Shown here piece after piece: positions 11,925 through 56,002 of a stretch of 64,000 nucleotides of DNA; positions within the stretch are counted from its first letter, which is position 1; every line of letters starts with the position of its first letter. The DNA lies in assembly GCA_030390025.1 (NCBI GenBank), contig CM059430.1, forward strand, positions 62,744,001 to 62,808,000, in the 5' to 3' direction. A program made the translations under genes and the position numbers. The stretch is from Squalus acanthias. Its lineage: Eukaryota. The notes under the pieces were generated by a model. That model saw nothing but the letters and a program-made list of their open reading frames with translations. It did no database searches and was not told where the DNA came from.

Positions 11925-12170
11925 ATGACAGGTAAACAGTTGCACATTTACTTCAATTTTGCGGCCCCCGTCATTCGGGAAAAAACTGCAACGTTCTTGT
12001 AGAAACCTGGGCTAATCAAGGCAAATCAGCACGGATTTCGAAATGGCAAACCGTGCTGGACTTCCCAGCGGTTGTATATAATATATTTTTATTGAATTCA
12101 TGTATGATGATAATTAGTTACAGCAAGGCTATAAGCGTATCCTTGTAATCGAAAGAGTAGAGATTTGTCT

Positions 12171-13186
12171 TCAGTTAAATAATAGATTTAACATTAAAGT
12201 ACGTCAGGAAAGTTACATTTTTCTTTAAAGCAGCTAAAAGAAAATGTATCAAATAATTGAACAGTAAGTAATAACTATAGACTGCTTTCTCTGATATATC
12301 TCTGGAATGCTTTACCTCCTGGGGGAATGGTATCGCACGCTTTACAAACGCGTGGAGTTGATATGGCAGCGGAATGTGATCAGTACACACCAAAAATGTG
12401 CCTTCTGCATCGAAAATGTAATGCTAATTGATTCTTCCTTCTGTGTACACAGGCTCTGTTACTCCTCTTTGTTTTTTTGTCTGCAACTGGCCATACTCTG
12501 TGCTTCTTACGTTATTTTTGCATATCCCCGTTTTCTTTGAGCCAGTCAATGCTAGAGTCGCGTATATCAGCTTGTCACGGCCGGTCCCTTGTTCAGTCTG
12601 TAAAGCCAATGTTTGGGTGTATTGTTAATTGGCCTTTTTGCAAGTTCTGCGGACTGCTGCTCAAAGTAGACATCAGAAGGACACACAAATAGCCACACAA
12701 ATACAACACACGGTCAAAGTCAGCACAAACATATTCCCTCTGCTATCGCATGAATGTTGATGTTACACCGGTGATCTATGTTTCTCTGATCTGTCACTTA
12801 GCCCTACCTGATTGTACACGGCTCCCTGCTCTTCACGTTTACGTCTTGGAGTTTTCCTGGCTTTGCTCATTTCTAAAGCAGCATACTGCACGATCTCAGC
12901 CGCTGCTCCCTGCATGGGTCACAATGAAAATGTTTGATTATGTCGTCAGTACATTGCCTTCACCAGTTTACGTACCGCTGATCAAACATTGAAGAGATTG
13001 ACCGGGGCTTGAGATCAAGTGCACAAACCTTAGTTCATATATATTTAGATAAGTGGGAATATCAAGGCACTGTGGTCGCTATAACTAATATTTAAACCTG
13101 TCAATGATCATGCTGCAATACAGTGTTACAGAAATGTTTAAAGGAGTGGCAGCTTTAGAACGTAAAGTTTTATTCAAATCCAAAGA
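12171..13186. repeat. ~1-kb direct duplication, copy A (partner ~15493-16484)
   Basis: Colinear similarity from tcagttaaataatagat to ttcaaatccaaaga. Confidence 0.9.
12424..12597 (-). CDS. Duplicated exon 6 (distal copy), intact, motifs LIYATL, TEYGQL, PVYTEG; candidate alternative last exon
   Basis: Same acceptor ggctttacag, same 174-nt length, open frame; minus-strand AATAAA at 12088-12093. Confidence 0.65.
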   Translation of the reverse strand, partial: TEQGTGRDKLIYATLALTGSKKTGICKNNVRSTEYGQLQTKKQRGVTEPVYTEGRIN

Positions 13187-15492
13187 GATACATATTCCAG
13201 GCTACTTGACTTTTATAAGATATAGGCAAAATATAAAAGGAGGGGCGGTAGCCCTGATAATAACGGAGGGTATAAAGACAGTAGAAAGCAAGCATCTTAG
13301 CTCGGAAAATCAAGGTGTAGAATCATTTGGTGGACCTAAGAAACAACAAGGGGCAACACGAGTGGTACTAGTGCACAGGCCCCCTATCAGTAGCTGTAGT
13401 GTCGGGCACAGTATAAATCAGGAAATTAGACGTGCGTGTAACAAGGGTAATGCAGTAAACATTGAGGAGATTAATTTTCATATAGACTGGGCAAACCAAA
13501 CTTGCAGTAATTGTGCAGCGAATGAGTTGATGAAATGCATTAAAGATAGTTTTCTAGATAAAAATATCGAAGAACAGGCTATTTTAGAACTAGTATTGTG
13601 CAATTAGACAGGGTTAATTAATAACCTTGTATTAATGGAGCCTCTGGGGAAGAGTGATCATAATATGATAGAATTTTATATTGGCCCGGATTTTGTGGCG
13701 GATTTGATGGCGTACTCTCAGAGTACGCAGTCATACCACCTTTGAAATTGGCCACAAGTTTAGGATTTTTGTATGCACTTGCAGTCTGTCAACGTACGCA
13801 TTGACAGACCATCCACACACCAACCAAAAACTTAATTGCTGGTGCAGAGTTGGGCTAATCGCCCACCAACTGCACAGCAATTATGTATGGAAATGTTCTG
13901 GCTGGTGGAAACAGGGGCAGGGCCTGTTTCCACAGCGTAAGAGGATACCCAAAATGAAAAAAAAATGCTTTTTTTAATTAAATGACATCCAGCAACATTA
14001 AAAGCTTTAATGAGAAGCAATCCTAGTGTAAGTTAAAGCGGCAGGTTTTTTAAATAATGTTTACATTTCATAATTATCTGCACAGTGCACAGTATTTATT
14101 TAGAAGTGGGAATTGCGAGTAATGAATTGGATTCCCATGATAAAAGCTAAATCTGTAATGTATTTTAAAGGCTGTAGTAATGAAGTAATGTAGTAATTTA
14201 AATGAATGAAAGACAATCTGTTTCCTGATTGGAGAACCAGGCCCACGTGTTCCCAGGTACGCTTCTGCACAGGCTGCTTCCCTGGGATCTCTGAGCCATT
14301 ACGCTGCCCTCCTACTCGCAGCATCAGAGAGCAAGTTTACAAAGCAGGCCACCATCAGGTTGGTGCATATTCTTTTTGTAGGTCCATGTCATACTCCAGA
14401 GTGACGCCATGGAGCGGAATTTTGGGGCTATTGAGTTTGAGAGTGATTTAGTTAAGTCCGAATTTGGGAGTAAATCTGAACAAAGCAAACTACTTAGGTA
14501 TGAGGGGTGAGTTGGCTAAGGTAGATTGGTGAACTAGATTAACAGATATGATGATAAATAAGAAATGGCAAGCATTTAAAGAATCAATTCATAATTCACA
14601 ACAAATATACATTCCCTTAAGGAATAAGAACCCCACCCAAAAATTGGTCCAACTGTGGCTTACAGGAGTGTTTAAAGTAGTATTAGATTAACGGAAAAGG
14701 CTTATAATGCTGACAAAAAGGAGAAGTAAACCTGAGGATTTTAGAATTTAGCAAAGGATGACCAAGAAATTGATAAAGAAAGAGAAAAGAGAATATGAGA
14801 GTAAACTAGCAAGAGACATGCAAACAGATTGTAAAAGCTTCTATAGATATGTAAAAAGGAAGATGTTAGCGAAAATAAACTTGGGTCCCTTACAGGCAGA
14901 GACAGGAGAAATTATAATGGGGAATAAGGAAATGGCAGAAACATTATACAAATATTTTGCGTCTGTCTTCAGAGAAGAAGACGCAAAAAACATTCTGTAA
15001 ATAGTGGGGAACCAAGGGTCTAGTGAGAATGAGGAACTTAAAGAAATTAGTAACAGTAATGAAATTGTACTGGAGAAAATATCGGGACCAAAAGCTGACA
15101 AATCCCCTGGACCTTATGACCTACACCCTAGGGTTTTACAACAGGAGGCGACAGAGATAGTGGTTGCATTGGTTTTGATCTTCCATAATTCCTTAGATTC
15201 TATAACGGTCCCTGTGGACTGGAAGGTAGCAAATGTAACCCGCTATTCAAGAAAGGAGGGAGAGAGAAAACAGGTAATTATAGGCCAGTTGGTCTGACAT
15301 CAGATGTAGGGAACATGCGAGAATATGTTATTAGAGATGTGGTAACAGGGCAGTTAGAAAATCATAATATGAGTGGGCAGAGTCAACACGGATTTATGAA
15401 AGGAAAATCAGGTTTCAAAAATCTGTTAGAGTTTTTCGAGCTTGCAATTAACAGGGTAGATAAGAGGGAACCAGTAAATTAGTGTATTTACC
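13187..15492 (+). mobile_element. CR1 ORF2 fragment truncated at both ends, between the two exon-6 duplicates
   Basis: Endonuclease motif IPGY..GGAVAL through KSPGP..LHPRVL, ending in early RT. Confidence 0.85.
13683..14429. mobile_element. Harbinger-type MITE nested in a CR1
   Basis: ggcccggatttt .. aattttggggct, TSD att. Confidence 0.7.
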
Positions 15493-16484
15493 ATCAGTTA
15501 AATAATAGACTTAACATTAAGCATGTCAGGAAAGTTACTTTTTTCTTAAAAGCAGCTAAAAGAAAATTAATCAAATAATTGAACAGTAAGTAACGACTAT
15601 AGACTGCATTCTCTGATATATCACTGGAATAGATTACCTCTCGGAGGAATGGTGTCGCATGGTAAACATAGCAGCGGAATTCGATCAGTACACACCAAAA
15701 AAGTGACTTCTGCAGCTAATTTTATTGCTAATTGATGCTTACTTCTGTGTAGACAGCCTTTGTTACTCCTCTTTCTTTTTTTGTCTGCAGCTGGGCATAC
15801 TCTGTGCTTCTTTCGTTATTTTTGCATTTCCCCGTTTTTTCTGAGCCAGTCAATGCTAGAGTCGCATACGTCAGCTTGTCACGGGCTGTCCCTTGTTCAG
15901 TCTGTAAAGCCAACGTTTGGAAATAGTGTTAATGATTAGGTTTGCAGGTTCTGTGGACTGCTGCTCAACGCAGGCATCAGAAGGAGACACAAATAGTCTT
16001 AGATACAACACACGGTCAAAGTCAGCGCAAACATATGCCCTCCGCTATCGCATGAATGTTGATGTTCCACCAATGATTTATGTTTCTCTGATCTGTTACT
16101 CCTACCCGAGCGTACACGGTTCTTTCTTCTTCACGTTTAGTTCTTGGAGTTTTCCTGGCTCTGCTCAAATCTAATGCAGCATAATGCACGGTCTCAGCCG
16201 GTGCTCCCTGCATAGGTCAGAAAGAAAATGTTTGGTTATGTGGCCAGTTCATTGCCTTCACCAGTTTACGTACCGCTGATCAAATGTTGAACAGATTGAA
16301 CTGGGCTAGACATCAAGTGCACAATCCATAATTCATATATATTTAGATAATTGGGAATATTAAGACACAGTGATCATTATAACTAATATTTAAACCTGTC
16401 AATGTTCACTCTGCAACACAACGTTATAGAAATGTTTAAATGAGCGGCAGCTTTAGAACATAAAGGTTTTTTCAAATGCAAAGA
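15493..16484. repeat. ~1-kb direct duplication, copy B
   Basis: Colinear with 12171-13186. Confidence 0.9.
15728..15901 (-). CDS. Exon 6 (proximal copy), cytoplasmic tail with LTYATL, TEYAQL and AVYTEV tyrosine motifs
   Basis: Acceptor ggctttacag, phase 0, 57 aa then TAG; AATAAA at 15721-15726 immediately after the stop. Confidence 0.8.
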   Translation of the reverse strand, partial: TEQGTARDKLTYATLALTGSEKTGKCKNNERSTEYAQLQTKKERGVTKAVYTEVSIN

Positions 16485-19400
16485 ATAGATGATTGTATAA
16501 ATAGATATCACCTAGATTTTCAACCAAACAGGCAGTTATCTTTTCAGCCATTTCACATTTTTTACCAGCAAGTACATTTCTAACCACGATTTAAATGGCT
16601 CACTAAGACCGGACAAATACTTTTAGTAAATAGACTTAATCTGTGAATATTTCCATGGTGTTATGGTCCCTCTGTGCGTGCGTCCCGTTTGGTACTGCGC
16701 ATGGGCACTCGATTCGACCGCGCATGCGCAGTAGCGAACAGTGCGACGGCCTTCTCCCGCGTGCTTTCCTCGGCTCCGTGCGAAGAAGGACATGGGATCG
16801 GATGTGGGTTGGGGGAGAGAAGAGGGCATCGAAGGGGGGAGGGAGGAGAGTGGGTCGAAGGGAGGAGGCGAGCGGATCGAAGTGGGGGAGGAGAGGAGAT
16901 CGAAGGGGGAAGAGAGGAGAGGGGATTGAAGGGGGAAGAGAGATGGGGGGATCGCAGGGGGTGAGGAGAGGGGATTGAAGGGGGGAGGGAGGAGAGTGGC
17001 TCGAAGGGAGGAGGCGAGCGGATCGAAGTGGGGAGAAGAGGGGATCGAAGGGGAAGAGAGGAGTGGGGATCAAAGGGGGTTGAGGGGTTGGAGGGGGAGG
17101 AGAGAGGCTCAAAGCGGGAGGAGGAGAGCGTAACGAGGGAGGAAGGAGGTGGAATCAAAGAGGGGAGCAGAGGGGATGGAATAGGAGGAGAGTGGATCGA
17201 AAGAGGAAGAGAGCTGAACGAAGGGGGGAGAGGACCTCGGATAGAGAGGAGCTCGCAGGGGGAGTGGAGCTCGCAGGGGGAGAGAGGAGCTCGGAGTGCG
17301 GAGGGAGGAGCTCAAAGTGGGGGGAGGGTCAGGAACGTGCAGGGAGAAGGTCAGGAACTCGCGGTGGGGGAGGTCAGGAACTCGGTGGGGAAGAATGTCA
17401 GGAGCTCCTGAGGAAGGGGGGCGGAAGTTCATCAACTCGGGGAGAGAAAGTCAGGAGCTTGTTGGGGGGAACACGGTGAGAAAGGTGAGGAGGCGGAAAA
17501 AATGTGATCCAGGTCTAAAGGAGGGGGTTGAGAGCAACAAAGTGATCCAGATGGGAAGATACAGATGCCCGTGTGCACTCGATCCAGTCGCGCATGTGCA
17601 GTAACAAATGGTGGGGCGGCGGCGGCCTGAACTGGCACACTTTCGTCAGCTGCGTGCGGAGAAGGTCAGGGGATTGTGGGAGGAGAGGAGAGGGGATTGA
17701 AGGCGAGAGGAGAGGGGATCAAAGTGGGCACCAGAGCGGATCCAAGGGGGCAGTAAGGAAGAGGGATCGAAGTGTGGGAGAGGAGCTCGGAGAGAGAGGA
17801 GCTCGGAGAGAAAGGAGATCAGAGAGGGGAGAGAGGCGAGAGGAGAGGGGGGAGAAGGTCAGAAACTTGTTGGGGAAGCACAGTGAGAACAGTGGGGAGA
17901 GAAGGTCAGGAACTTGTTGGGGGAGCACAGTGGGAACAGTGGGGAGGTGGGAAGAATGTGATCCAGGTCTAAAGGAGGGGAATGAGAGCAAGGAGGTGAT
18001 CCAGATGGGAAGATAGATCACGTTCTCCCGCCCTCTGTTAGGACTGCATTACGCTCTTCCACCCCACTCCCTTTCCACCTGCTCAACGTTCTCCTTCTCC
18101 TCCCCCATCAACCGCCCACCCCCACCCCCCAGACCGCAGCAGTTGAAGAAGGCAGCTCACTACCATCCTCTCAAGGGCAACTAGGGATGGGCAATAAATT
18201 AATTAATTTAAAAAAACGTGAACGTATCCTGTGTTGATCCTGCAACCTGAATAACATTACATTTATGTGTTATTTGCCAGACTCGACTATTCTAATGTTC
18301 TCCTGGTCAGCCTCCCATTTTCCACCCTCAATGAACTTGAGCTCATCCAAAACTCTGCTGCACTTATCCTAACATGCAGCAAGTCTCATTTACCCACTAC
18401 CCCTGTGCTCGTTGACTTACATTGGGTCATGGTCCACCAACAACGTTCCCGCTAAACTATACGGTCACGTCCCTGTCAGGAGGTCCCAAGCAGGCTGCTT
18501 TCCGGCTTTTGAATGGGAGAAATAGTGCAAGCGGGAAATTTTGAATCTGTTGTGCAGCCCGTTAAAGGGGCCAAAAATTAGGGGGAACATTGTACACCAA
18601 CACCTTGATTTTAAAATTCTCATCCTCATTTTAAAATCCTTCCATGGCCTCACCTCTTCATATCTGAACTCTGCATTGTGAGCGCTGTGAGTGCTCCTAA
18701 CCTTGAGGGTGAGCCCTGTCAGTTTTCTGAAAGCAGTAATGTTAGCACTGTGAGCTCTGGAGCCTGACTGTCACAATGAATGGATCATATTACTCATTGC
18801 AAAGATCTTGATTACTCTGCAGCAGGCATGATCAAATTACACATTCCAGACAAACTGTTGGGTGTGTCTTGTCCTCCAAGGGGACCGCTGAGACACGACT
18901 GTACGCTTAAACTATTCTGACGTGATTATGATATGCTCTTTCCATTATAGCAAACTTGACAATTCAACCATCTGCCGGGATGAATGAATGAACGTACCAG
19001 CTCTTCACGGCGGTTCGGTCCCATTACACATTCTTCTTTACCTGAAAAGGAATGAAATTGAATGATATTGAAAGATTGAAATATTTACTCAGTTTCCGTG
19101 TCAATGATTGAAAAGACATTTCTAGAGTCAGAACAAAGCCGAAAATAATTTCCAATTCCGGTTTGTGCCGACAGTGTTTGAAATCCCAGCCCTTGTAGCG
19201 ATCAGCAATGATGGATTTGGGGATTTTTTTCGGAAACTAAGGGAATCGTTTTTGACATTAAGGGAATCAAAGGATATGGGGATAGGGTGAGAAAGTGGCG
19301 TTGAGGTAGAAGATCAGTCATGATCTTATCGCATGGCGGAGCAGGCTCGAGGGGTCGTATAGCCTACTCCTGCTCCTATGTCTTATGTTCTTATGTTTAC

Positions 19401-22400
19401 AGCCATTCCCCGGCCGGAGCCTCACACTCTTTCACTCAAACTAGTTGTGCATCCACAACAGAATTTGTTGGAAAGTGATTGTGTGTCAGGGTACATGTCA
19501 TTTATTATGCTGCAAAGGGGACATTTTTGTTGCAAACATCCAGATAATTATCTCCATTTTTATTGCGATTCTCTGAGAATATCTGCGTTTTAAAATGCAT
19601 TTGGTACAATCGGCGCTCTCTGAAAACAGATCACAAGGTTTTCAACTTTAATTCCTAATCGAGTTCTCATTTCCCCGTGTTACCCGGAGACTGTCACTAA
19701 CCGTGGCGTTTTGAACTATAATCAAGGGCTTACTGTAGATCTTACCGTCATTATTCTGCAGTCGGCACCGCGTCCCAATGAAGATCATTAGCACTAGAAA
19801 CGCCAATCCACCCACTGCACACCCAGGAGCCCAGAAGTAAAGTAAATTAACGTCATTACCTGCAAGATTAATAGGAACATTAAGTTATGGCGGGTGTGGT
19901 TAAAAATAGGCCTCAAGATAGATTATTGGTTAAACTATGGTATTGCTTTCAGTAACTCCGCGGTACAGAACGGCAATAAGAAAGCTTAAATACAAAACAT
20001 GATTTCTTTTAGATATAATGGCCCAGAAATTGATCTCGCTCTGTTCCCGCGGGCGTAAGGAGCAGGCGCGATCTCTCACTCCGCGTTGGCTTTTTCAGAT
20101 CCAGCTGGCACGAACTTGATGTTACACACATCAGCTGGGCAGTGCTTGCGTATCCCACCGGCGTAGTGAATTCGTGCGAGCTGTGGGATCACGTGACTCA
20201 GTTAGAGCCAATGGCAGCACACCATCTTCCATTCATAAGTTTCACATAGGTGCTGTGAAATCTATGAATCTTACACCCCCCCAAAATAACAGCTAAAACT
20301 CAATTAAATTAAAAAAAACCCATCACATTAATAAAATAAGTATAGTTAAATAAATTAACCATTTTAAATAAAAAATTAAATTTTTGAAAAAATTTAAAAT
20401 CTTTTAAAAAGTTATAAAAATAAACTTACCTGTCTTTAAAGTCTCTAAAAAAGATATACCTGTTAAAAAAAATTCAAAAAAATACTTAATTCACTACTTA
20501 CCTTGTTAAAAGTGGGTCTTACTCCTTTTTCCATTTCTAAAATCTTCCGTCCTTACCTGCGCGTCCAAAGCACTAAGTGCACAGCGTGCGCGCAGCCTGT
20601 AGCGCGCACGCGATGCACCGAGGAACCGCCCCCTTTTCCAAAGACCAAGTGCCGGTTTTCAGCGCATGCGCAGGGCATGCAGAAAACCGGCAATTGGAGA
20701 GAGAATACGCGAGAGTACGCAGTGCGTACTCTCGCGCAGCGGGATCAATTTTTAGCCCAATAGTTGAATTAATTTCTTCATCGAATGGATCTGACATTCT
20801 GGATTAATCTGCGCATCGCACTACCGGTTTTGGGCTCTCAAAACATTGGCCCAGAAATTGATCCGGCTGCGCGAGAGTACGCACAGTGTACACTCGCGCA
20901 GCCAGACTTCAATTGCCGGTTTTCAGCATGCACTGCGCATGCACTGAAAACCGGCAATTGATGGAAGTGAAAGGGGGCGGGTCCTCAGTGCACCGCGTGC
21001 GCGCTACAGGCTGCGCGCACGCAGTGCACTTCATCGCTTGCGCACGCAGGTAAGTATTGAAGATTCTGGAAAAGTAAAAAGCAGGCGCAGGAGCCTCTTT
21101 TAACCAGGTAAGTACATAATTAAGTAGTATTTAGAATTTTTTTTTACAGGTAAATCTTTAGTAGCGACTTTAAAGACAGGTAAGTTTATTTTTATAACAT
21201 TTTAAAAGATTTAAAATTTTTTCAAAAATTTATTTTTTTGTTTAAAAAGGTTAATTTATTTAATTACACTTATTTTAATAATGTGATGGGTTTTTTTTTT
21301 AATTTAATGGAGGTTTAGCTCTTCTTTTGGGGGCTTGTTGTATTCCTAGTTTTCACAGCAGTTCAATGGCCGCTGTGAATTCTATGAATGAGAGCTTGGT
21401 GTGCTGCCATTGGCTGTAACTCAGTCACGTGATCCCACAGTGCACTCGAACTAACTCCGCACTGTGGAATCACGATGCACTCGCAGCTGATGGCTGGGAC
21501 ATGAAGTTCCAGCGAGCTGGGACTGAAAAAGCCAAGGCGCAGTGAGACATCGCGGGAAGGGCTTACCCTCGCACGAACCCTCACACTGCAATTTCTGGGC
21601 CATTGATTTAGGAGAGTTAGAACACGAGAGAGATCAATTTCCCTTGACCAAAAGACTTGTTCTTGTTCTTGACCTTTCTTATTTATTAACATATGGTTTG
21701 AGGAAATTGACGGCAATTTTATCACAAGCGTTTCTTCGTTGCCCGCACGATATTCCGGATTGCAGCAGTCTGTTAAAAATCCTCTTTCAATTACCTGAAC
21801 TGTGTTTATTACAGTAGGAATGACACTGAATAGTAAAGGATATCAACGGGCGATTGTTCATTGATTATTGTCTTGGGGATGGGAAGAGTTGTTCCCAATA
21901 TGATTTATTGAACCGGCTGTACTGTCGCCTCTTTGCAGGCACAGGTTAAATGAGATTTATGAGACAGATTCCAATTAAACCCGCTGTGACAGGACGGGTG
22001 AGGGGTAAAAGCTGGCGAGGGGGTTAATTTCAGATCTCTGCAGTAGAATTAGCCGATAGGGGGATCAGCATCAGGAATTGCATTGGGAGAAGCCCGAGTG
22101 CATGACTGCAGCTCCTGGTAACAGTCTTGGTGCAAGGAGAGCAGGCAATCGTAAAGAATAAAACAATCTTAATATTGAAACGAAATTAATAATAAGCAGG
22201 AGAGGAAACATAATCGGATAGAAAAGATAAACTCCTGTTTATGATTGTTATACAATATAATTAAAGGAATTTGAATGCAAATAAGGTTTGACTGAGAATA
22301 TTTGTGTGGCGGGCGATATAACCAGGTTTTACAACACATCGGTTTCAATTATACATTAAAACATGAATTTAATGCATTTCTTTGAAATTTCCCATCAGCC

Positions 22401-25038
22401 TTCCGTGGACTATCGTCATGATTATTTATAAGTACAAACTGTACGATATATCTCTTTATGAATTTAACAGTGGCTGGCTCTCCTTTTTGGCCTGTTGGCC
22501 TCGTACCTTGGTTGGATTTAGAAACAACATAGGTGACAAGAGCTGGAGTCTCGAGAGAGACATGAGAAACCAAACAGGTATAACTGGCATCGCTTGGGAC
22601 AGGCTCTGTCTGGACCAAAGAGCTGGAAACTTCATACAGTCCCTCCGTGTTCTGCTCTTTCCTGGTATGTATTCCTAATGCAATTTCGACGCCATTTTTA
22701 TTCCAAGTGAGGGTGAAATTCTCCGGATAAAACGCAGCCGTTTTACACACAAGAGTCAGAGAAGCAGCTGAATCCCCTTCAGTGGAGACAATCTTCAGTG
22801 GGGTTGGGGCCGCTGCGGAACAGAGATTGAACAAAATCGAGTTACTGGGCACCATTGGGAGATTAAATATGATTCTGATTTACGTTCGGTCCATTTTATT
22901 ATAATAGCACCATTAGAAAGCGCAGCCTCCTGTCCATTTAATGTTACGCTCATCATCTACACACACCTGATCCATATCTCTCATAGACGCCCGCATCTGT
23001 TCAATTTACCCGCGCTATCAAGTCCAAGCCTTTGAGTTACTCAGCAGACAATTCGCAACGATTTGCTAATCAATGTTTGGTTTTCATAGTCCAAAGAATT
23101 AAGTAAATAAACCTCGGGGGTAAGTTTGCGCGCTGAGTCCCTCCGTGTTAGGAACAGATAGACAGTGAACAGTAATCTGCACATTGTGGATGGCAAAATG
23201 AGGGCCTTAGTCGATATCGGAGAGAATTCGCAGCCGAAGCATGAAAATTGGCGAAAGTAATTATATTCGGTTGAACCTTAGCAGGTTTCAGCAACACAGC
23301 TGTTCTGTGTTGTTTAATTTATTGGACATTCGTAGAATCAAAGAATCACAGAAATTTATGGCACGGAAGGAGGCCATTCGGCCCATCGTGCCTGCGTCGG
23401 CCTAAAAAGAAGTATACAGCCTAATCCCACTTTCCAGCTCTTGGTCCGTAGCCTTGTAGGTTCTGGCACTTCAAGTGCATATCCAAGTACTTTTTAATGT
23501 GATTAGGGTTTCTGCCTCTACCACCCTTGCAGACAGTGAGTTCCAGACCTCCACTACCCTCTGGGTGAAAAGATTTCTCATCAACTCCCCTATAATCCTT
23601 CTACCAATTACTTTAAATCTATGCCTCCTAGATATTCGCCTCCCTGCTGAGGGAAATAGACCCTTCCTATCCACACTATCCAGGCTCCTCATAATTTTAT
23701 ACAACTCAATCAAGTCTCCCCTCAGCCTCCGCTGTTCTAAAGAAAACAAGCCCAGCCTATCCAATCTTTCCTCATAGCTAAAATTCTCCAGACATGGCAA
23801 CATCCTCGTAAACCTCCTCTGTACCCTCTCTGGTGCAATCACATCTTTCCTGTAATGTGGTGACCAGAACTGTACGCAGTACTCCAGCTGTGGCCTAACT
23901 GGTGTTTCAAACACTTCTAGCATAACCTCCCTGCTCTTACATTCATTGACTGGGCGAATGAAGCAAAGTATCCCGGACGCCTTTTTAGGTTAATGAGGTG
24001 ACAACGTTGTGTGTTCCAAGCTCCAGTTTGTTGAGTGAAACCGTTGAACAACAGTTAGTTTCACGCTAACATTATGTAAGAATTAATTTCAGGAATGTTA
24101 AACCGCAGGGACAGCGATGGGGGCAGACAGAGCATCACAAATGGGCTGAGAGCCGTGTATATGTTGGGAGAGATGCATTAATACAAACGATATTCAGTCA
24201 GTTATATGCTTGGAATTTGTTCCAAAATTCCGCTATCAGACATCTGATGTGTAAATTGTCTTTGGAGTTATAGTCTAATTGGTTAATATTGATACATTTT
24301 GCAATACTCTGCCTGTGATATTGAATGTCGAATCAGCAGTTCTACACGGAGCACACGAACTTACAACTTTACTTATCGCGAAATGTATCAATACACATGT
24401 TTATATTGCCAAAAGCGGTGCAATAAAGCAATCACAAAACATCCCCGTTTGTTATGTTCGATATATTTACGACTGTGCCGCTCTCCTGTGTTTCACACTT
24501 ACCATGCACAATTAGCTGTGATCCGGTTCCATTTCCTCGAGAAAGTCCCCGATGGAACACTGCACAGTGATAGACTCCAGAGTCTTGGAAAGTCGCGCTC
24601 AGCAACTGAAAGAACCCGCTCGCCTTACTTGTCAGACCAAATAGTTTTCTGTTATCGGCGCTTATGCGCAGGTATTCATTCTCACCCTGTTTCCACCAAT
24701 ACACTCTTACCCAGGAATGGCCCTGGGAGATGGGAAACATGCAGTAGAAGGTGATGTTCCCCCCTCTGGATACAGTCGCTTGTTTGGGCACTTGAAACAC
24801 TCTGAACGTATTGTTGTCCGCCGCTGTCAAAAATATAGACAAGTACAGGTTAATTGTATTAGCCACGACCTGGAGATAGAAGACAGAAAAAACCTAGATA
24901 GAGGTATCGCGGTTCACTAAATAATGTGGAAACTACTTCGGATATATAAATTAAAGTAGCTGGGACAATGAATAAAGAGGTACCTGTGTAAATAATCCCC
25001 CGGAGAGTCAGGCACAGGAAAAGGATACTCGCCGACAT
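15728..25038 (-). CDS. Non-rearranging IgSF receptor, leader-V(J)-C1-TM-ITIM/ITSM tail, 6 exons, 337 aa (SIRP/NKp30-like)
   Basis: Exons 25038-24984, 24823-24503, 22812-22507, 19859-19746, 19041-18998, 15901-15728. All introns are GT-AG with compatible phases (1,1,1,1,0). Total 1014 nt, no internal stop. Confidence 0.88.
16795..18015 (+). repeat. Purine (G/A)-rich low-complexity tract with degenerate ggatcgaagggg units
   Basis: Strong purine skew on the plus strand; two related modules in tandem. Confidence 0.8.
18998..19041 (-). CDS. Exon 5, short cytoplasmic exon (GKEECVMGPNRREEL)
   Basis: Acceptor ttccttttcag, donor CTG|gtacgt; 44 nt converts phase 1 to phase 0, as exon 6 requires. Confidence 0.75.
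19746..19859 (-). CDS. Exon 4, transmembrane segment (GNDVNLLYFWAPGCAVGGLAFLVLMIFIGTRCRLQNND)
   Basis: Acceptor atcttgcag, donor G|gtaaga, 114 nt, phase 1/1; uncharged hydrophobic stretch followed by basic residues. Confidence 0.85.
20020..20758. mobile_element. Harbinger-type MITE
   Basis: TIR ggcccagaaattgatc / gatcaatttttagccc, 3-bp TSD aat, AT-rich core. Confidence 0.8.
20848..21601. mobile_element. Harbinger-type MITE, same family, opposite orientation
   Basis: TIR ggcccagaaattg / caatttctgggcc, TSD att. Confidence 0.85.
22507..22812 (-). CDS. Exon 3, Ig C1-set domain
   Basis: LTLVCKTAAFYPENFTLTW, YTCLVSHVSL; acceptor ttccgcag, donor G|gtacga; 306 nt. Confidence 0.93.
23335..23985 (-). 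mobile_element. CR1 3' end in intron 2
   Basis: VRPQLEYCVQFWSPHY..LFSLEQRRLRGDLIE plus 3' tail. Confidence 0.9.
24503..24823 (-). CDS. Exon 2, Ig V-set domain with germline J-like G strand
   Basis: Motifs ITFYC, VYWWKQ, DSGVYHC, GNGTGSQLIVH; acceptor ttgacag, donor G|gtaagt; 321 nt. Confidence 0.93.
24984..25038 (-). CDS. Exon 1, signal peptide MSASILFLCLTLRGIIYT
   Basis: ATG at 25038, hydrophobic leader, phase-1 donor G|gtacct. Confidence 0.8.
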
Positions 25039-33545: not shown

Positions 33546-34269
33546 CTTGGCCACACTGCTGAAATAAAAGCCACCACAAAGCAAACTTTCCAATCCAACT
33601 TGCAAGTGTCCAGCAGCACTCCCTGCACACTTCAAAAAAACTTTTAACATGCATTGCACCAAGCCACTACTTCAATAAAATAAAAATATCCAGTCCAGAA
33701 ACTTGAATGCAAACTTACCTGAACGATGTCTGTGTCCCTTTAAGAGGTGTTGACAGCGCCTCTGTCAGTCTGCTGAAAGCTGGGTTTTCATGCCGAGTTT
33801 AGGATGCAGCGCTGAACTCAGCAACAAGGTCGAAGTTCGCTGAGGTGACGTTAAGTCGCGTTGCAAACCAACTTATGTCCCCCTCTCTTAATTTACATGT
33901 CCAGGGCCAGCGCTGCTATTGGCAGCGCTAATGCCCTCACCAAAATGATGGCCGCCGAATCCCGCACCAGAGAAGGGCGCTAGAGTGGCGGCCGCCATTT
34001 TTAGACCGGATCGCAGCGAAAACTCGTGGCAGTAAGTGGGCCAATTTCTAGCGCAATTCTATGACCTCATTAGCCGCTGGTAAAGAAAAACACACACACA
34101 GATTGTGTTACTGAAACCTGCCGAGGTTAATCCAACTGCTGTTTCTCTCAAACATATTTGATACATTTACAACAATTCCTCTGTGTGTTTCACACTTAAC
34201 GCACACCTTTAGATGTGACCCGGTTCCATTACTACTAATTCTTCCCTGACGGTTCACTATGCAATCATA

Positions 34270-35164
34270 GGCCAGGATTTTACGGTAATAATGACGGCGA
34301 AACTGTCAGCATTCTCCATCATTACTCCACTGAAACTAACAGCAACTTCTGGAGCCCACAAATGTGCAGATAAACATGAGATCCAGAAGTTACTATCAGT
34401 GATATTACGCTTCTCCACAGGCTCCGCTATTGAACTCCCCGGAGCCTGCAATCAATTCAAATCCTAACAGCAATGTGGGAGTACCTTCACCACACGGACT
34501 GCAGCGGTTCAAGGCGGCGGTTCACCACCACCTTCTCAAGGGCAACTAGGGATGGCCAATAAATGCTGGCCTTGCCAGCGACGCCCAGATCCCATAAGCG
34601 AATTTTTAAAAAATCAAGGAACTGCTGAAAACTTCCCCTTTTACACTGGCATATTGCTTTTAAAACCCCCTGAAAAAGTTAATCTTGTTGAAAGAGGTAT
34701 AACTGGGTTTTCAACGGCATACTGACGGCTGAACAACCGTTCTAGCCCTGAAAATCTAATTTTATATTTGTGGAATGTCAAATTTGTCCATTATGATCTA
34801 AAAAATTCCATGTTTTTTAAAATAATTTTTTTATACTGTGTTTATGATATTTCAGTATCTACCTTAATCCCATGTGCATGTCACAATCTTTATTTCCTCT
34901 CTAAAATGATTAAAAAGTAAAGGAAATGAGTGGATTTTACTTCCTGGTTTGCTGTCTGTGAGAATTCTTCAATGTAATTGACTGTTTTTCTTAGCAAGCT
35001 TGATGACATCATGGTTGCTGGAAGCTGGAGATTCCATTGACTTGGAGCATGAATTAAATTAACATCAGGAGAGGTGAAATCCACGCAACTGGATCTTTGT
35101 GGGCAGCTTTCTTCGAGGTCAGCGGCGAGCACCATCACTTTGCTGCTGACAGCAAAATCCGGGC
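34270..35164. mobile_element. MITE inserted in the pseudo-V exon
   Basis: ggccaggatttt .. aaaatccgggc; V sequence resumes on both sides. Confidence 0.7.
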
Positions 35165-35396
35165 AGATTACAGATTCCTAGAAAGTGGTCTTCAGCAACA
35201 GAAAGAACCTGCCTCCTTTTGTTTTCAGACCAAATCAGTTTCTGTTATCGGCTCCACTTTGCAGGTATTCATTCTCATCCTGTTTCCACCAACGCACTTC
35301 GACCCATGACTTGTCCTAAGGGGAATTACCCAGTAGAATGTGATGTCTGTCCCTTTGATTGCAATGACTTGTTCAGGAATTTAAGCCACTCTGGTC

Positions 35397-37328
35397 ATAA
35401 GAACATAAGAAATAAGAGCAGGAGTAGGCCATATGGGCCCTTGAGCCTGCTCCGCCATTCAATAAGATCATGGCTGATCATCGACCTCAACTCCACTTTC
35501 CCGCCAAATCTCCATATCCCTTGATTCCCCTAGAGACCAAAAATCTATCTATCTCAGCCTTGAATATACTCAAAAACTCAGCATGCACAGCCCTCTGGGG
35601 CAGAGAATTCCAAAGATTCACAACCCTCTGAGTGATGAAATTCCTCCTCATCTCAGTCTTAAATGGCCTACCCCTTATCCTGAGACTATGCCATCTAGTT
35701 CTAGACACTCCAGCCAGGGGAAGCAACCACTCAGCATCTACCATGTCAATCCCCTTCAGAATCTTGTATGTTTCAATGAGATCACCTCTCGTTCTTCTAA
35801 ACTCCAGAGAGTAGACCCGTTCTACACAATCTCTCATCATAGGACAGCCCTCTCATCCCAGGAATCAATCTAGTGAACCTTTGTTGCACCACCTCCAAGG
35901 CAAGTATATCCTTCCTTAGATAAGGAGATCAAAACTGTGCACAGTACTCCAGGTGTGGTCTCACCAAGGCCCTGTACAATTGTAGCAAAGACTTTCTTAC
36001 TCTTATACTCCAACCCCCTTGCAACAAAGGCCAACATGCCATTTGCCTTCCTTATTGCTTGCTGTACCTGCATGCTAGCTTTCTGTGTTTCTTGCACGAG
36101 GATACTCAAATCTCTCTGAACACCAACATTTGAAAGTTTCTCACCAATTAAAAATATTCTGTTTTTCTATTCTTCCTACCAAAGTGAATAACCTCACATT
36201 TCCCTACATTATACTCCATCTGCCAACTTACTGCCCACTCACTTAGTCTATCTATATCCCTTTGCAGATTCTTAGTGTTCTCCTCACAGCTTACTGTCCC
36301 ACCTAGCTGTGTATCATCAGCAAACATGGATACATTACACTTAGTCCCTTCATCTAGGTCATTAAAATAGATTGTAAATGGCTGAGGGCCCAACACTGAT
36401 CCTTGTGGCACCCCACTCGTTACAGCCTGCCAACCTGAAAAAGATCCGATTATACCTACTCTCTGTTTTCTGTCCATTAACCAATCCTCTATCCGTGCTA
36501 TTATAATACCCCCAACCCCATGAGCCCTAATATTGTGCAATAACCTTTGATGTGGCACCTTACCGAATGCCTTTTAGAAATCCAAATATACTACGTCCAC
36601 TGGTTCCCCTTTTTCTACCCTGCTAGTTTCATCCTCATAAAACTCTAATAAATTTGTCAAACACGATTTCCCTTTCATAAAACCATGTTGACTCTGCCTA
36701 ATCATGTTATTATTTTCTAAGTGCCCTGATACCACTTCCTTAACAATGGATTCCAGCATTTTCTAGACGACTGATGTCAGGCTAACTGGCCTGTAGTTCC
36801 CTGTTTTTTCTCTCCCTCCTTTCTTGAATAGCGGTGTTGCATTTGCAACCTTCCAATCCGCTGGGACCATTCTAGAATCTAGGGAATTTTGGAAGATCAA
36901 AACCAATGCATCCACTATCTCTTCCGCCACCTCTTGTAGAACCCTAGGGTGTAGGCCATCAGGTCCAGGGGATTTGTCAGCTTTTAGTCCTATTAGTTTC
37001 TCTAGTACTTTTTCTCTACTTATATTAATTACGTTAAGTTCCTCACCCTCATTAGACCCTTGGTTCCCCACCATTTTTGGCATGCTTTTTGTGTCTTCTA
37101 CTGTGAAGACAGATACAAAATATTTGATTAATGTTTCTGCCATTTCCTGATTCCCCATAATAATTTATCCTGTCTCAGCCTCTAAGGGACCAACGTTTAC
37201 TTTTGCTACGCTCTTCCTTTTACATACTTGTAGAAGCTCTTACAATCTGCTTTGATATTTCTTGCTAGTTTTCTCTCATATTCTATTTTTTCCCTTTTTA
37301 TCAATTTTTTGTCAACCTTTGCTGGTTC
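35397..37328 (-). mobile_element. CR1 LINE inserted in the pseudo-V exon
   Basis: RT motifs GVPQGSVLGP and FADD; TSD ctggtc at 35391-35396 and 37329-37334. Confidence 0.92.
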
Positions 37329-37492
37329 CTGGTCGAAGTACACGCAGCAGCTGTGAGAACATATAGTCAAAGTTTGTTTCATTGTATTAGACGCCTTACC
37401 AGAAACTTTAGAATACTTATCTATTTGCAAATGAAAGAGATAAAGTAGAATAGTGACAGATGAACGAGATTTCATTGAATTTATGTGCAGTA

Positions 37493-37581
37493 GAATACGC
37501 AGTAGATAGTGATATCGGTCCCTCTGAATGCAGTTGCTTGCTGAAGAAGTTGAGTGACTGTGATGGAAATACTGTAAGCAG
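37493..37581 (-). pseudogene. 5' stub of a third paralogous V exon (AYSISITVTQLLQQATAFRGTDITIYCVF)
   Basis: Acceptor ttcctgacag with upstream intron similar to exon 2; matches RVFQVPKQATVSRGGNITFYCMF; truncated after the first Cys. Confidence 0.75.
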
Positions 37582-37630
37582 CTGTCAGGAAGTATATTCA
37601 AAGTTTGGTTAATTGTATTCGATATGTATT

Positions 37631-44844: not shown

Positions 44845-45803
44845 ACAACAATTGCATTTATATAGCACCTTTAACATAGTAAAACATTCGGAGCTGCTTC
44901 ACATGAGCACAATAAGATAAAAATTGACACCGAGCCAAAGAAGGAGATATTAGGACAGGTGACTAACAGCTTGATCAAAGAGATAGGTTTTAAGGAGATT
45001 CTTAAAGGAAGAGAGGTGGAGAGGCAGAGAGATTTAGAGAGGGAATTCCAGAGCGCATGGCCTAGACAGCTGAAGGCACAGTAGTGGGTTAAAGCAAGTG
45101 AGAGATGGAGAAGAGGTCAGAGTTGGAAGAATGCATAGTTCTCAGAGGGTGGTAGGGCTGGAGGAGGTTATAGAGATGGGGAGGGGCGAGAGCATGGAGG
45201 AATTTGCACACAAGGATGCAAATTTTTAAATGGAGGCGCTCAGAGACCGGGAGCCAATGTAGGTCAGTGAGCACAGGGGTGATGGATGAAAGGGGATTAG
45301 GTGCAAGATACAATATGGGGACCAGAGCTTTAGATGAGCTTAAATTTAGGAGGGTGGAAGATGGAAGGCCAGTCAGGAGAGCATTAGAATAGTTGAATCT
45401 GTAGGTGACAAAAGCATGGATGAGGGTTTCCGCAGGAGATGGGCTGAGGCAGGGGCGATATTTTGGAGGTAGTGGTGGAGGTGGGCTGTCTTGGTGATGG
45501 AGTGAACATGGGGTCAGAAGCTCAGCTCCAAGTCAAATAGGACGCAAAGGTTGTGAATAGTCTGATTCAGCCTGAGACAACCGATGGCTAGTGATCAGAG
45601 GTTCTGACAGGGGCTGAAAACAATGGACTTCCAAATGTTTAATTGGAGAAAATGTCAGTTCACCTAGGACTGAATGTCGAGCAAGCAGTCTGAGAACACA
45701 AAGGCAGTGGAGGGGTCGAGAGAGGTGGCGGTGAGTTAGGACCACGTACTTGTGGAACTTGATGTGCCTTTGTATGTTTTCGCCGAGGGGTAGCATGTAG
45801 ATG
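44845..45803 (-). mobile_element. L2-like LINE 3' portion, the target of the provirus insertion
   Basis: ITPVLTDLHWLPV; sequence continues at 57264. Confidence 0.75.
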
Positions 45804-47062
45804 TGTAAGGGGTATCTTAATGGGGTCAGCCTTCGCTTTCTGACACAGTGAGCGGCTCGAATCGCTCCCACACCCCTCTGGTTCCTAGACTTTGGACTTA
45901 TTTAGGGGTTGTGAACAAAATTGCAGTAAACAACAGGTACTGATGAAAGAATTTTACTTTATTAAAAGAAAAAGGTAAACTTGAAACACACTTATTACTT
46001 AAACACAGATTGGGGAGCACACGGTACAAGCGAGGGACAATGACAATATATCAAACAAAACCTTATCCCTCCCAAAGATCCCACTATCTAGCTAGGTTTT
46101 TGGTTTCAGGAGATCAGGGATAATGCTCACCAACGAATCCTTGACAGGATTTTAGAGTCTTTTGTTTAAAAGACTCCGTAAGGCCCTTGTTGCTGCGAGG
46201 TGTCCGATGGTCACTGAGGCAGTCGCTCTGGTTTCTTCTTGCGTGCTGGTCTATTTTCTGGCCTTCTTCCTCGTGGCTTGTGGTGGTTTTTGCTGGAGCA
46301 GGGAGAGAGCTGTGTCCACGTAGTCGGCGAGTCCGAAAGAGAGAGAAGTTATGGCACAGGCTTTTAATTATACTGTTTCTTTTTCGCGCCAAAAAAAACC
46401 CTTACTAAAACGGATTCCTTTAGGTTGCAAATGAACCGTGCTTAGTCCAATTGTTTAGTTTTGCCGGGCTTGCGAGTTCCGATGGCTTTTTCTCAGTGTT
46501 AAACATGTCTTGATCGTTTTCTGATTTAAACACAGCCTTATCTACGCGCCAAATCTCCACCCTATTGTCCTAGGTCTTTTGGCGGACTTTCTTAACTGCT
46601 CTGGTCGATACTTGGCTGATGGGTTTTTGATGGGATAATGGGCTATGAAACTGTGTGCTGGAAGTTTTATTGTCAGGAATCGGTTTTAGATTTCAAGCAT
46701 CCTGTTTGCACCTGGGGATTTCAATAGGGTTCTTGGTTTATTCATATTTGAATGTGTTTGTGAGTTTTTGCTTTGTCTCTTGCACCTTGGTAGGATTTGC
46801 AATGTAAACAATTCCCAGACAGCTTGATCTGTTCACTGCCTGGCCATGACCCTCGCAGCTTGTCTTGTGTCTGTGAAAGGTGTCTCTCCCAACAGTAAGA
46901 TTCAAAAGTCAGTTTCCTCAGGATTTTATCTTCCCTGATCTTTAGGTTTTTACACCAAATCACTTCACTTAGGTCCCATCATCCCAAGTTTTTATGAAAG
47001 GTCCAAAAATCACTCCCTTTAGGGCTCTGTTCGAGTTTCTGGGGGATTTGGCGAAGCCTACA
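45804..47062 (-). repeat. 3' LTR (1259 bp)
   Basis: tgtaagggg...gcctaca, adjacent to the PPT. Confidence 0.95.
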
Positions 47063-47073
47063 TCCCCCACTTT
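47063..47073 (-). promoter_or_regulatory. Polypurine tract
   Basis: AAAGTGGGGGA abutting the 3' LTR. Confidence 0.85.
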
Positions 47074-47344
47074 GATACTAAAACTGAATTAGTATCATTA
47101 GCAGGTGAGCAAAATTTCCGATCCCCGAAAACCAACCTTCCCCTGTATTACCTAAACTAAAAACCCAAACATACATTCCCCTTTTGAAAGTGGTGTTTCA
47201 GGTACATACAGGTAAGAATCTATCTTTATTTCACATCCAAGCACGGAGAGGGTCCGACACCCCTGCACAGCTTGGAAAAAACACATCATACACATCATAA
47301 AAATGACACAACACACATACAAATTTTTTATTAAAAGACAAAAT

Positions 47345-49698: not shown

Positions 49699-49899
49699 TC
49701 CGAAGTCCTTTCTGTAGGGGCACACACAAAACATATATCCATGTCCCAGAAAGGTTCTCTGGCTGGATAATTAATCAAGCCCTTAAACTTAAAAAAACTC
49801 TACAAACAACTAAACTAATGATAACCCATAACCACCAAAACTGCAATTACTTAAAACCGAAAATTCTGTACATTTGCCGCCCGTCTCCGGACGGCCAGG

Positions 49900-52800: not shown

Positions 52801-54174
52801 CAGAGGGGCTGCTGTGGCTGCGTAATCCTCAATGAAATCTCTGCAGTACCCAGTTAGCCCAAGAAAAGACCTTACTCCTGTAACTGTGTTGGGGGCTGGT
52901 AACTCCTGAACTGCTTCCCTTCTAGCTTTGTCAATGGCCCTCTCCCCTGCTCGCACAGCCAGGCCCAGGAATTTGACTTCCCGCTGGCCAATCTGTGCCT
53001 TTTTGGGGTTTACTTTAAAGCCCTCTTGCCTGAGCAGTTCCAGCAGTTCTGCCAGAAGGGGACCATGTTCCTCTCCCTCATCGGTAAAGAGGAGTAGGTC
53101 GTCCACATACTGGACCAGCTGATGGGGCCTGCTGAAGCCCTTCAAGCAATTCGCCATACATTGGTGAAAAATGCTTGGGCTGTTGTGGAAACCCTGGGGC
53201 AGACAGTTCCATGTGTGCTGTTGGCCTTTAAATGTAAAGGCGAACTTGTACTGATCCTCTCTCCTTAGAGAGATGGACCAGAACCTGTTGGAAATATCCA
53301 GCACTGTAAAGGTGTTCGCAGATGCTGGGATACTTCCAATGAGGTCGGCTATGGCTGCAACCGTGGGGGCACAGGCGGGGATGTTTCGGTTGAGCACTCG
53401 ATAGTCTACTGTGGCCCTCCAGGAGTTGTCTGGTTTTCTAACCGGCCACAGTGGGGAGTTCACGTGGGTAACTATAGGTCTCAATACCCCCTGCTTGACT
53501 AAAGAAGTCAAAGCCGTTTCCAAGTCTGTCTCAGCTTCCCTGGGGAAGTTATACTGCTTTTGTGGGCGGTTCATGGGGTCCCCAATCACACTAACCTCGA
53601 CCCCGGTTACCCTCCCACAGTCGTGCTTGTGAGTGGCAAATGCTGCGAGGTATTCCTGCACAAATGCCTGGTACTCCATTGGAGTGTTACTGACCATGAG
53701 TTCGAGGTCGTAACCCTCCTTTGGTTTTACTGTGCACAAGGTCCCCTTGCCTTGTGCCTCCGAGATGACTGCTACCTCACTACCCTTTTGGGTACATGCT
53801 CCCCATAGACAGTGGTTCCTTAAATCCACTAAAATCCTGTGGCCTGTGATAAAGTCGGCCCCCAGGATCCCCTTCCCTTCTTGCTCCCACTTCATTAGGA
53901 CACAGGTCCACTTGGTGTGGAGCGTTCCCAAATGAATGGACAGCGGAATGGAGAATGAGCCAGCCTGCTCGTTACCTGTGAATCCCACTAGGCTGTACGG
54001 GACCCCGTTAGACAGAGGTGAAGTGGCTGGGTTATCTGAATAAATGAGGGTGCTCGAAGCTCCTGTGTCTAACAGATAGGTCCCTTCTACCTTTTCTACC
54101 TCCATCTTAACATGCGGTCTCTTCCAGGCATCATACTCGAGGGGACACAGGTAGACCGGCTGTGCTAGCTCCAG
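49900..54174 (-). pseudogene. pol: pol: protease, RT, tether RNase H, RNase H, integrase (three clustered stops)
   Basis: LLDTGA; LPQGFHNSP and YVDD; FFLEVAAS..AVLLQ..RPVVYSSR; IYVDGSS..AQQAEL..SDS; IQVDYIG/ESDQG/VERLN DDE triad; GPY motif. One frame, stops only at 52035, 52014 and 51996. Confidence 0.95.
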
Positions 54175-55999: not shown

Positions 56000-56002
56000 T
56001 TA

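What the first reader, a model, noticed from the sequence alone, without database searches (positions are those of the whole stretch)
15728..25038. Intact non-rearranging VJ-C1 receptor with an inhibitory tail: an antigen-receptor-like ectodomain wired to ITIM/ITSM signalling
Seen: one exon encodes V plus a J-like GNGTGSQLIV strand with no RSS interruption. It is followed by one C1 domain, an uncharged TM and a tail with LTYATL (ITIM), TEYAQL (ITSM-like) and AVYTEV. Established: V(J)-C1 is the TCR/Ig light-chain architecture; NKp30 has a similar germline VJ but no C1 and is activating; SIRP-alpha is V-C1-C1 with ITIMs. Inference: a member of a multigene inhibitory receptor family resembling the proposed pre-RAG antigen-receptor ancestor. 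Exons 4 and 5 are missing from the ORF track.
Basis: partly seen in the sequence, partly recalled or inferred. Interest (0 to 1): 0.8.

Follow-up and report, generated by a model that had tools for sequence, protein, structure and literature searches.

The report
Shark SIRP-like paired immune receptor family
This intact shark gene encodes an antibody-shaped surface protein that needs no DNA rearrangement and likely acts as an immune brake; it is one of about a hundred clustered look-alikes, many predicted to be activating, and it looks more like a shark counterpart of our SIRP receptors than like the ancestor of antibodies.

Summary
The gene is real and intact: leader, single-exon VJ, one C1, uncharged TM, tyrosine tail. 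It belongs to a cluster on G000:C6 (124 V and 133 C1 matches), with relatives in sharks, rays and chimaera. Sixteen of 39 sampled TM exons carry Arg and have a short, broken or undetected tail; one Arg gene shares an identical V domain with an inhibitory neighbour. This is a paired-receptor family. It is off the MHC and PBX contigs, beside NDRG4 on the c-MAF chromosome (same linkage in 8 of 8 species). V trees reject grouping with Ig/TCR (AU p 0.007-0.03) but not with SIRP (p 0.25); the tail's tyrosine register matches SIRP-alpha. The V domain is short and has an N-glycan site where Ig/TCR have their pairing Phe/Trp. So 'inhibitory multigene receptor' is supported; 'pre-RAG ancestor' is not. 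Splicing, ligand and signalling are untested. I found no description in the papers I could search; key papers were not held.

The parts
24984..25038 (-). Exon 1: leader, phase-1 donor, followed by a 160-nt intron (split leader)
   Evidence: 89% identical to the start of homologue P0002
24503..24823 (-). Exon 2: single-exon VJ domain; Cys-Cys spacing 59; N-G-T sequon at the FGxG position
22507..22812 (-). Exon 3: C1-set domain (FYP, 13 residues between Cys and Trp, xVxH)
   Evidence: hallmarks as defined in PMC2785349, read off the sequence
19746..19859 (-). Exon 4: uncharged transmembrane helix with a Cys and a GxxxG pattern
18998..19041 (-). Exon 5: 44-nt juxtamembrane exon
   Evidence: only phase-compatible strong candidate; 67% identical to P0002
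16106..16207 (-).
   Evidence: 79% identical to P0002
15728..15901 (-). Exon 7: ITIM LTYATL, ITSM-like TEYAQL, AVYTEV, stop; AATAAA follows the stop directly
12424..12909 (-). Duplicate of exons 6 and 7 (12909-12808, 12597-12424): open frames, splice sites kept; possible alternative tail
   Evidence: 84% DNA identity over about 1 kb; use not shown
34195..37585 (-). Broken paralogous V exon in three pieces, with stops and a frameshift

Best explanation
The gene encodes a germline, non-rearranging V-C1 membrane protein with a five-tyrosine tail that likely works as the inhibitory member of a large chondrichthyan paired-receptor family, in the manner of SIRP-alpha. Shown: gene anatomy, family size, Arg-TM siblings with lost tails, near-identical ectodomains in opposite-signal pairs, and location beside NDRG4. 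Inferred: (1) the V domain binds a cell-surface ligand as a single domain, because an N-glycan site occupies the position of the Ig/TCR pairing residue; (2) Src-family kinases phosphorylate two ITIM/ITSM-like pairs, each spaced 23 residues; (3) these recruit SHP-1/SHP-2-type phosphatases and damp activation; (4) Arg-TM siblings couple to a CD3zeta/FcRgamma-type ITAM adaptor and arose more than once from inhibitory genes, probably as counter-decoys. Ligand and cell type are unknown; a self ligand on host cells is my guess.
For: Seven-exon open frame. 124 of 136 V matches and 133 of 150 C1 matches lie on G000:C6 at 57.5-76.9 Mb; 39 tail-exon matches. 78 relatives at E<1e-30; all 20 family proteins I looked up by name are chondrichthyan. 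TM exon found in 39 of 42 stretches, 16 with an Arg near its N-terminus. In the 7 RYA-type genes, exon 6 shares a 1-nt deletion in 6 of 6 covered and has lost its acceptor in 5 of 6. L012 and L027 stop at the second tail Tyr. L036 and L042 stop just after the TM. Five SRCA-type genes show no tail match. L004 (Arg) versus L005 (inhibitory): V 100%, C1 98%, DNA 95% over 2.6 kb, then 68-77% at TM and tail; L042/L037 V 95%. Tyr spacing 23/14/23 versus 24/17/26 in bird SIRP-alpha; a family-tail HMM scores that tail 58.7 bits, above 500 of 500 motif-kept shuffles (max 28.7) (alignment). Paired-receptor definition: PMC3716694 passage. Arg-TM/adaptor rule: PMC6514059 passages. SHP-1/2/2L in sharks: PMC12151841 passages.
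Against: No spliced transcript seen: only contigs were available, and the one contig over exon 1 runs into intron 1. No binding or signalling data. TEYAQL and TVYAR miss the strict ITSM. FcRgamma was not found in cartilaginous fish in a 2014 survey (PMC4016189 passages), so the adaptor is uncertain. Some Arg genes may be pseudogenes. The 40 paralogues were picked from high-scoring V hits, not at random. The best two-domain fold match is B7-H6, a ligand (Z 16.1, rmsd 4.4, 193 aligned; tied with other Ig pairs).
Confidence: 0.8

Rival explanations
1. The family is a true SIRP homologue: a sister copy from the vertebrate genome duplications, kept on the 16q-like chromosome in cartilaginous fish while SIRP sits on the chromosome-20-like one. 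This is compatible with the best explanation and concerns ancestry only.
For: Tail register matches SIRP-alpha. AU tests do not reject family+SIRP for V (p 0.25) or C1 (p 0.38). C6, C8 and C11 each carry one large Maf, one NDRG and one BRK-domain gene. C6 has c-MAF and NDRG4 by name. NDRG1-4 map to 8q24, 14q11, 20q and 16q21; MMP14/15/16/24 mark the same four regions as paralogous. SIRP on chromosome 20 is recalled.
Against: Neither tree groups them. Bird SIRP-alpha finds no clear orthologue in G000: best E 4e-6 on other C1 exons, C6 at 4e-5, and its V prefers C26 exons (strict first look). Identity is only 22-23%. One C1 instead of two; Arg instead of a DAP12-type charge. SEP-domain genes (NSFL1C-like, a recalled SIRP neighbour) are on C8 and C11, not C6. 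ITIM spacing may converge on SHP-2 geometry; I tested no other double-ITIM tails.
Confidence: 0.35
2. The family is a relic of the VJ-C1 gene that RAG invaded.
For: Single-exon VJ, C1 and split leader, as described for UrIg2. The top PDB hit of the C1 exon is UrIg2 (summed over three domains). In the reduced C1 tree family+Ig/UrIg is one side of a branch at 90/49, not starred. Foldseek's top hits are light chains (the library is antibody-rich).
Against: AU rejects family+Ig/TCR (p 0.007), family+TCR (p 0.033) and family+Ig/TCR/UrIg/PRARP-like/CD8 (p 0.012) on V (35 rows, about 110 columns). Phe/Trp at the FGxG position in 0 of 42 V exons, N-G-S/T in 37 of 42 (hand count of the printed list). 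V is 59 residues Cys-to-Cys versus 65-76 in Ig/TCR. Not on MHC-I or PBX contigs.
Confidence: 0.07
3. The proteins are B7-H6/B7-type ligands or adhesion molecules with reverse signalling, not sensing receptors.
For: Best fold match B7-H6; some RefSeq names say NCR3LG1-like or CD276.
Against: B7-H6-like V domains form their own clade (99/92) and lack the J-like strand. A separate B7-H6-like V-C1 gene lies at C6:33.8 Mb. Paired Arg/ITIM forms with homogenised ectodomains fit receptors.
Confidence: 0.08
4. This copy is a silent but still open pseudogene in a birth-and-death cluster.
For: Many neighbours are broken. Family dN/dS is about 1 for V and 0.73 for C1 (non-independent pairs, pseudogenes included).
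Against: All seven exons are open, all 12 splice sites canonical, and a polyA signal follows the stop. Against the six closest paralogues with a C1 value plus L008, C1 dN is below dS in 7 of 7 pairs.
Confidence: 0.1

Closest known systems
SIRP family (SIRP-alpha / SIRP-beta1)
   Same: V-set plus C1-set ectodomain, clustered paired inhibitory/activating genes (PMC3716694, PMC2785349 passages); four tyrosines in near-identical register
   Different: One C1 instead of two; shorter V; a fifth Tyr motif; activating forms use a TM Arg; about 100 genes instead of three; beside NDRG4; orthology not shown
RefSeq chondrichthyan models named SIRP-like, tapasin-related-like, NCR3LG1-like, CD276 or Ig lambda-like (e.g. 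XP_067853506.1, XP_007902825.2, XP_038662025.1)
   Same: Same family and same chromosome as c-MAF/NDRG4
   Different: Automatic, inconsistent names; I found no paper treating them as a family
NITR (teleost and holostean)
   Same: Single-exon VJ; clustered inhibitory, activating (Arg) and secreted forms; also once proposed as antigen-receptor relatives (10.1101/2021.06.11.448072 passages)
   Different: NITR's second domain is I-set with six cysteines; here it is C1. The cited NITR neighbours are runx1 and donson. No NITR sequence was in my trees
NKp30 / shark NCR3 family
   Same: Germline VJ; Arg-TM activating logic
   Different: No C1; MHC-linked (candidate exons on C26, the MHC-I contig); separate branch in the V tree, though family+NCR3 is not rejected (p 0.087)
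UrIg / UrIg2 and PRARP (non-rearranging VJ-C1 genes)
   Same: Single-exon VJ, C1, split leader
   Different: UrIg/UrIg2 are multi-C1, MHC- or AgRC-linked, few-copy; separate clades in my trees. The PRARP paper was not read; my 'PRARP-like' label is a guess

Membership tests
Paired receptors (functional class) | Different genes in one cluster | tested here: met
Paired receptors (functional class) | Shared extracellular sequence between opposite-signal members | tested here: met
   L004/L005 V 100%, L042/L037 V 95%
Paired receptors (functional class) | Both ITIM-tailed and charged-TM short-tailed members | tested here: met
   by sequence only
Paired receptors (functional class) | Demonstrated SHP recruitment and adaptor coupling | not testable with these tools
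   needs bench work
SIRP | V-set plus C1-set ectodomain | tested here: met
SIRP | Three Ig domains (V-C1-C1) | tested here: not met
   one C1 between V and TM in the window gene and in full-length homologues
SIRP | Four-tyrosine ITIM/ITSM-like tail register | tested here: met
   convergence not excluded
SIRP | Clade with SIRP in V and C1 trees | tested here: inconclusive
   not recovered, not rejected: p 0.25 and 0.38
SIRP | Orthologous synteny (chromosome-20 neighbours, recalled) | tested here: not met
   MAFB-like, NDRG3-like and a SEP gene lie on C11; the family lies on C6 with c-MAF and NDRG4
SIRP | CD47 binding | not tested
   no complex predicted, no assay
Antigen receptors (Ig/TCR) | RSS-split V and J segments | tested here: not met
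   0 RSS-like hits in 42 V exons
Antigen receptors (Ig/TCR) | Phe/Trp-G-x-G pairing motif | tested here: not met
   0 of 42; Asn sequon in 37 of 42
Antigen receptors (Ig/TCR) | V clade with Ig/TCR | tested here: not met
   AU p 0.007, 0.012, 0.033; short alignment
UrIg/PRARP-type MHC-paralogon VJ-C1 genes | Linkage to MHC or its paralogons | tested here: not met
   0 of 50 MHC-I matches and 0 of 11 PBX matches on C6; only two markers, and many hits are on unplaced contigs
NCR3/NKp30 | Single VJ domain without C1; MHC linkage | tested here: not met
NITR | V plus I-set domain with six conserved cysteines | tested here: not met
   second domain is C1-set with two cysteines (definition)
B7-H6/B7 ligands | V clade with B7-H6-like proteins | tested here: not met
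   separate starred clades; B7-H6-like labels are mine

The most novel reading that the evidence does not exclude
This family and SIRP are sister copies from the vertebrate genome duplications, on the 16q-like and 20-like chromosomes of the 8q/14q11/16q/20 paralogon, whose fourth member (14q11.2, by NDRG2) carries TCR alpha/delta. A VJ-C1 ITIM receptor would then have lived on that ancestral chromosome before RAG, giving antigen receptors a second candidate birthplace outside the proto-MHC, and sharks would have built their main KIR/LILR-like self-sensing system of about 100 genes from it.
Probability: 0.15. Interest if true: 0.8.

Novelty: new variant of a known kind. Interest (0 to 1): 0.5.

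Why it matters
A 2014 survey found no LRC-type (KIR/LILR) genes in sharks, so what restrains their innate leukocytes is open. A cluster of about 100 on/off V-C1 receptors, present from chimaera to rays, is a strong candidate and can be tested. Its fixed place beside NDRG4 also gives a concrete synteny handle on where SIRP-like VJ-C1 genes, and possibly antigen receptors, arose, independent of the MHC-paralogon argument.

Tried and rejected
RNA: no RNA holder was listed. Four contig runs laid on exons 1-3 showed no joint at any exon end; one 253-nt contig matched exon 1 and intron 1 exactly. This is no evidence either way. Six-exon model: replaced by seven exons after comparing homologues. FTO as a 16q marker fell on an unplaced contig. 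The fourth NDRG and one BRK-domain gene are on unplaced contigs (C3333, C1175), so I could not link them to the TCR/IgH contig C29; a PDB comparison did not name the C3333 NDRG. My first reading that C1 sides with SIRP/B7-H6 depended on midpoint rooting and was dropped. Coelacanth P0154 joined the family in the C1 tree (97/86, long branch) but not in the V tree; reptile multi-VJ proteins were sister in the V tree at only 85/80. Neither is accepted as an orthologue, and 0 of 4 bony-vertebrate hits checked lie on their c-MAF contig. SIRP, NKp30 and PD-L1 ranks in fold searches were not informative. No complex was predicted. Not held: PMC10530332 (UrIg), Ohta 2019, PMC4594805, PMC3709836. The elephant shark supplement search returned no occurrences for six terms including NCR3, so it may not hold the relevant text.
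Full report
OBSERVATION. The region holds a minus-strand gene. A first model of six exons gave an open frame. tblastn of homologues showed one more tail exon at 16207-16106. The final model has seven exons, six GT-AG introns and 371 aa, with tail motifs VHYAAL, TVYART, LTYATL, TEYAQL and AVYTEV, and AATAAA just after the stop. Pfam calls exon 2 V-set and exon 3 C1-set, both above cut-off. The C1 hallmarks listed in PMC2785349 (passages read) are all present. No RSS was found in or around 42 of 42 family V exons. An AlphaFold model of the 73%-identical homologue P0002 (not of the window protein) gives two confident Ig domains, a TM helix and a disordered tail, mean pLDDT 75.6. Its V domain shows no C'' strand, and a skate VNAR is among its single-domain matches (Z 14.3, rmsd 2.0, 99 aligned).

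FAMILY. In G000, 124 of 136 V matches and 133 of 150 C1 matches lie on contig C6 at 57.5-76.9 Mb; about 79 of the V matches are stop-free and near full length (hand count). The last tail exon has 39 matches. These are lower bounds. Named homologues come from sharks, rays and Callorhinchus; the chimaera protein P0017 has the same four-tyrosine register. Of 922 representatives at E<0.001, 78 pass 1e-30. The ten weaker hits I named (E 1e-23 or worse) are SIRPs and other Ig proteins of pig, birds, reptiles, lungfish and coelacanth.

PAIRED RECEPTORS. I took 40 paralogous stretches from the higher-scoring V hits, plus L100 and the window gene. A TM exon was found in 39 of 42, and 16 have an Arg near its N-terminus. 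Seven RYA-type genes keep decayed tail exons: a shared 1-nt deletion in 6 of 6 covered and a lost acceptor in 5 of 6. L012 and L027 have a stop at the second Tyr. L036 and L042 end just after the TM. Five SRCA-type genes show no tail match in the stretch. Fourteen uncharged genes show tail exons within the stretch, some damaged. Database models repeat both classes. L004 (Arg) and L005 (inhibitory) have identical V domains and 95% DNA identity over 2.6 kb, falling to 68-77% at TM and tail. This meets the three sequence criteria of paired receptors in PMC3716694 (passage). Pairwise dN/dS is 0.99 for V (145 pairs) and 0.73 for C1 (127 pairs); pairs are not independent and include pseudogenes, so this is only a hint.

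ANCESTRY. V tree, 62 rows: the family is one clade (99/98), apart from IgL/IgH, TCR, SIRP, NCR3-like, UrIg-like and B7-H6-like groups; deeper forks are open. Outgroup labels for G000 loci and for unnamed proteins are my own reading of the sequences, not database names. On a reduced set (35 rows; 20 family rows and 7 outgroup rows dropped), AU rejects family+Ig/TCR (p 0.007), family+TCR (0.033) and the wider antigen-receptor set (0.012), but not family+SIRP (0.25) or family+NCR3 (0.087). C1 trees give three groups (Ig/UrIg, family, SIRP/B7-H6-like) and reject neither pairing (31 of 58 rows in 106; no TCR, MHC or tapasin C1 included). The Phe/Trp of the FGxG motif, which packs in the Ig/TCR V-V interface (recalled), is absent in 42 of 42 V exons and replaced by an N-G-S/T sequon in 37 of 42, and in 54 of 74 database domains. 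The tail aligns in register with bird SIRP-alpha; a family-tail HMM scores it above 500 of 500 motif-kept shuffles, and a lungfish SIRP-like tail likewise (38.0 versus max 31.9), while two reptile tails do not stand out as clearly (44 and 6 of 500). Against SIRP orthology, bird SIRP-alpha has no strong match in G000.

SYNTENY. None of 50 MHC-I matches and none of 11 PBX matches lie on C6. An NDRG4 exon lies at C6:61.12 Mb, 46 kb from the nearest family V exon; the other NDRG4 exons share unplaced C3468 with a family gene. c-MAF is at C6:15.2 Mb. Family members share a contig of identical length with c-MAF or NDRG4 in 8 of 8 species where both were listed; contig identity is inferred from length. 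C6, C8 and C11 each carry a large Maf, an NDRG and a BRK-domain gene. The MAFA, MAFB and CHD names are recalled; the C11 NDRG is closest to NDRG3 structures. Human NDRG1-4 lie at 8q24, 14q11, 20q and 16q21 (PMC12272907 passage), and MMP14/15/16/24 mark these regions as paralogous (PMC1867822 table). That SIRP maps to chromosome 20 and TCR alpha/delta to 14q11.2 is recalled. The link of the fourth paralogue to the TCR/IgH contig could not be shown here.

MECHANISM. Shown: anatomy, family, sibling classes, location. Inferred: single-domain ligand binding, tyrosine phosphorylation, SHP recruitment (SHP-1/2/2L are conserved in sharks, PMC12151841 passages) and ITAM-adaptor coupling of the Arg forms (PMC6514059 passages; FcRgamma was not found in sharks in PMC4016189). 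Expression is untested: only contigs were available and they showed no splice joint.

LITERATURE. Ten searches listed no paper that describes this family; I saw most results only as listings. Passages were read in PMC10751288 (plus section 13), PMC12227049, PMC11599192 and 10.1101/2021.06.11.448072; none mentions it. The UrIg, Ohta 2019, Ohta and Flajnik 2015 and Flajnik 2012 papers were not held, the PRARP and shark NCR3 papers were not read, and supplements of the MHC and UrIg2 papers were not read; any of these could list these genes. Earlier AI notes of this scan reach a similar verdict but are not independent evidence.

VERDICT. A real inhibitory-type member of an unnamed, large chondrichthyan SIRP-like paired-receptor family. 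It is a new variant of a known kind, not an antigen-receptor ancestor on present evidence. The NDRG4/c-MAF location is the main new lead. Interest 0.5.

Noticed in passing
window 12163-13186 versus 15486-16484: Tandem duplicate of the two tail exons, both copies open. Similar pairs about 3.3 kb apart occur at G000:C6 62.64 and 62.50 Mb, where one copy has a stop.
   Followed up: partly
window about 45800-57260: LTR retroelement with gag-like, protease-RT, RNase H-integrase and envelope-like frames; terminal repeats of about 1.26 kb are 97.4% identical; the envelope-like frame has no Pfam hit. Described only.
   Followed up: partly
window 20017-21604 (intron 3): Self-inverted element of about 1.56 kb, arms 78.5% identical, probably a non-autonomous DNA transposon.
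   Followed up: no
window 58918-61883: Myb/SANT-like frame plus DDE_Tnp_4 frame, a Harbinger-type transposon layout (family name recalled).
   Followed up: partly
window 24563-24569: A perfect RSS heptamer overlaps the YHC codons of the V exon, with no nonamer; it resembles the embedded heptamer of VH genes (recalled).
   Followed up: partly
L012 and L027 (G000:C6 67.76 and 72.79 Mb): Both have a TM Arg and a stop exactly at the second tail tyrosine codon: possible intermediates from inhibitory to activating form.
   Followed up: partly
L098/L099 (G000:C6 33.82 Mb): A separate V-C1 gene without a J-like strand, grouping with B7-H6-like proteins, on the same chromosome.
   Followed up: partly
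L063 (G000:C3 132.09 Mb): UrIg-like VJ-C1 exons off the MHC-I contig and off the TCR/IgH contig; they group with a UrIg2-like protein at 100/99.
   Followed up: no
L045-L047 (G000:C13 52.9-54.8 Mb), L048 (C262), L061 (C5 145.3 Mb): Other single-exon VJ genes: a germline-joined light-chain-like cluster, a PRARP-like pair, and a VJ-C1 gene with a PPP loop.
   Followed up: no
G000:C3468: This unplaced contig carries the rest of NDRG4 and a family gene, so it probably belongs in a gap near C6:61.1 Mb.
   Followed up: partly
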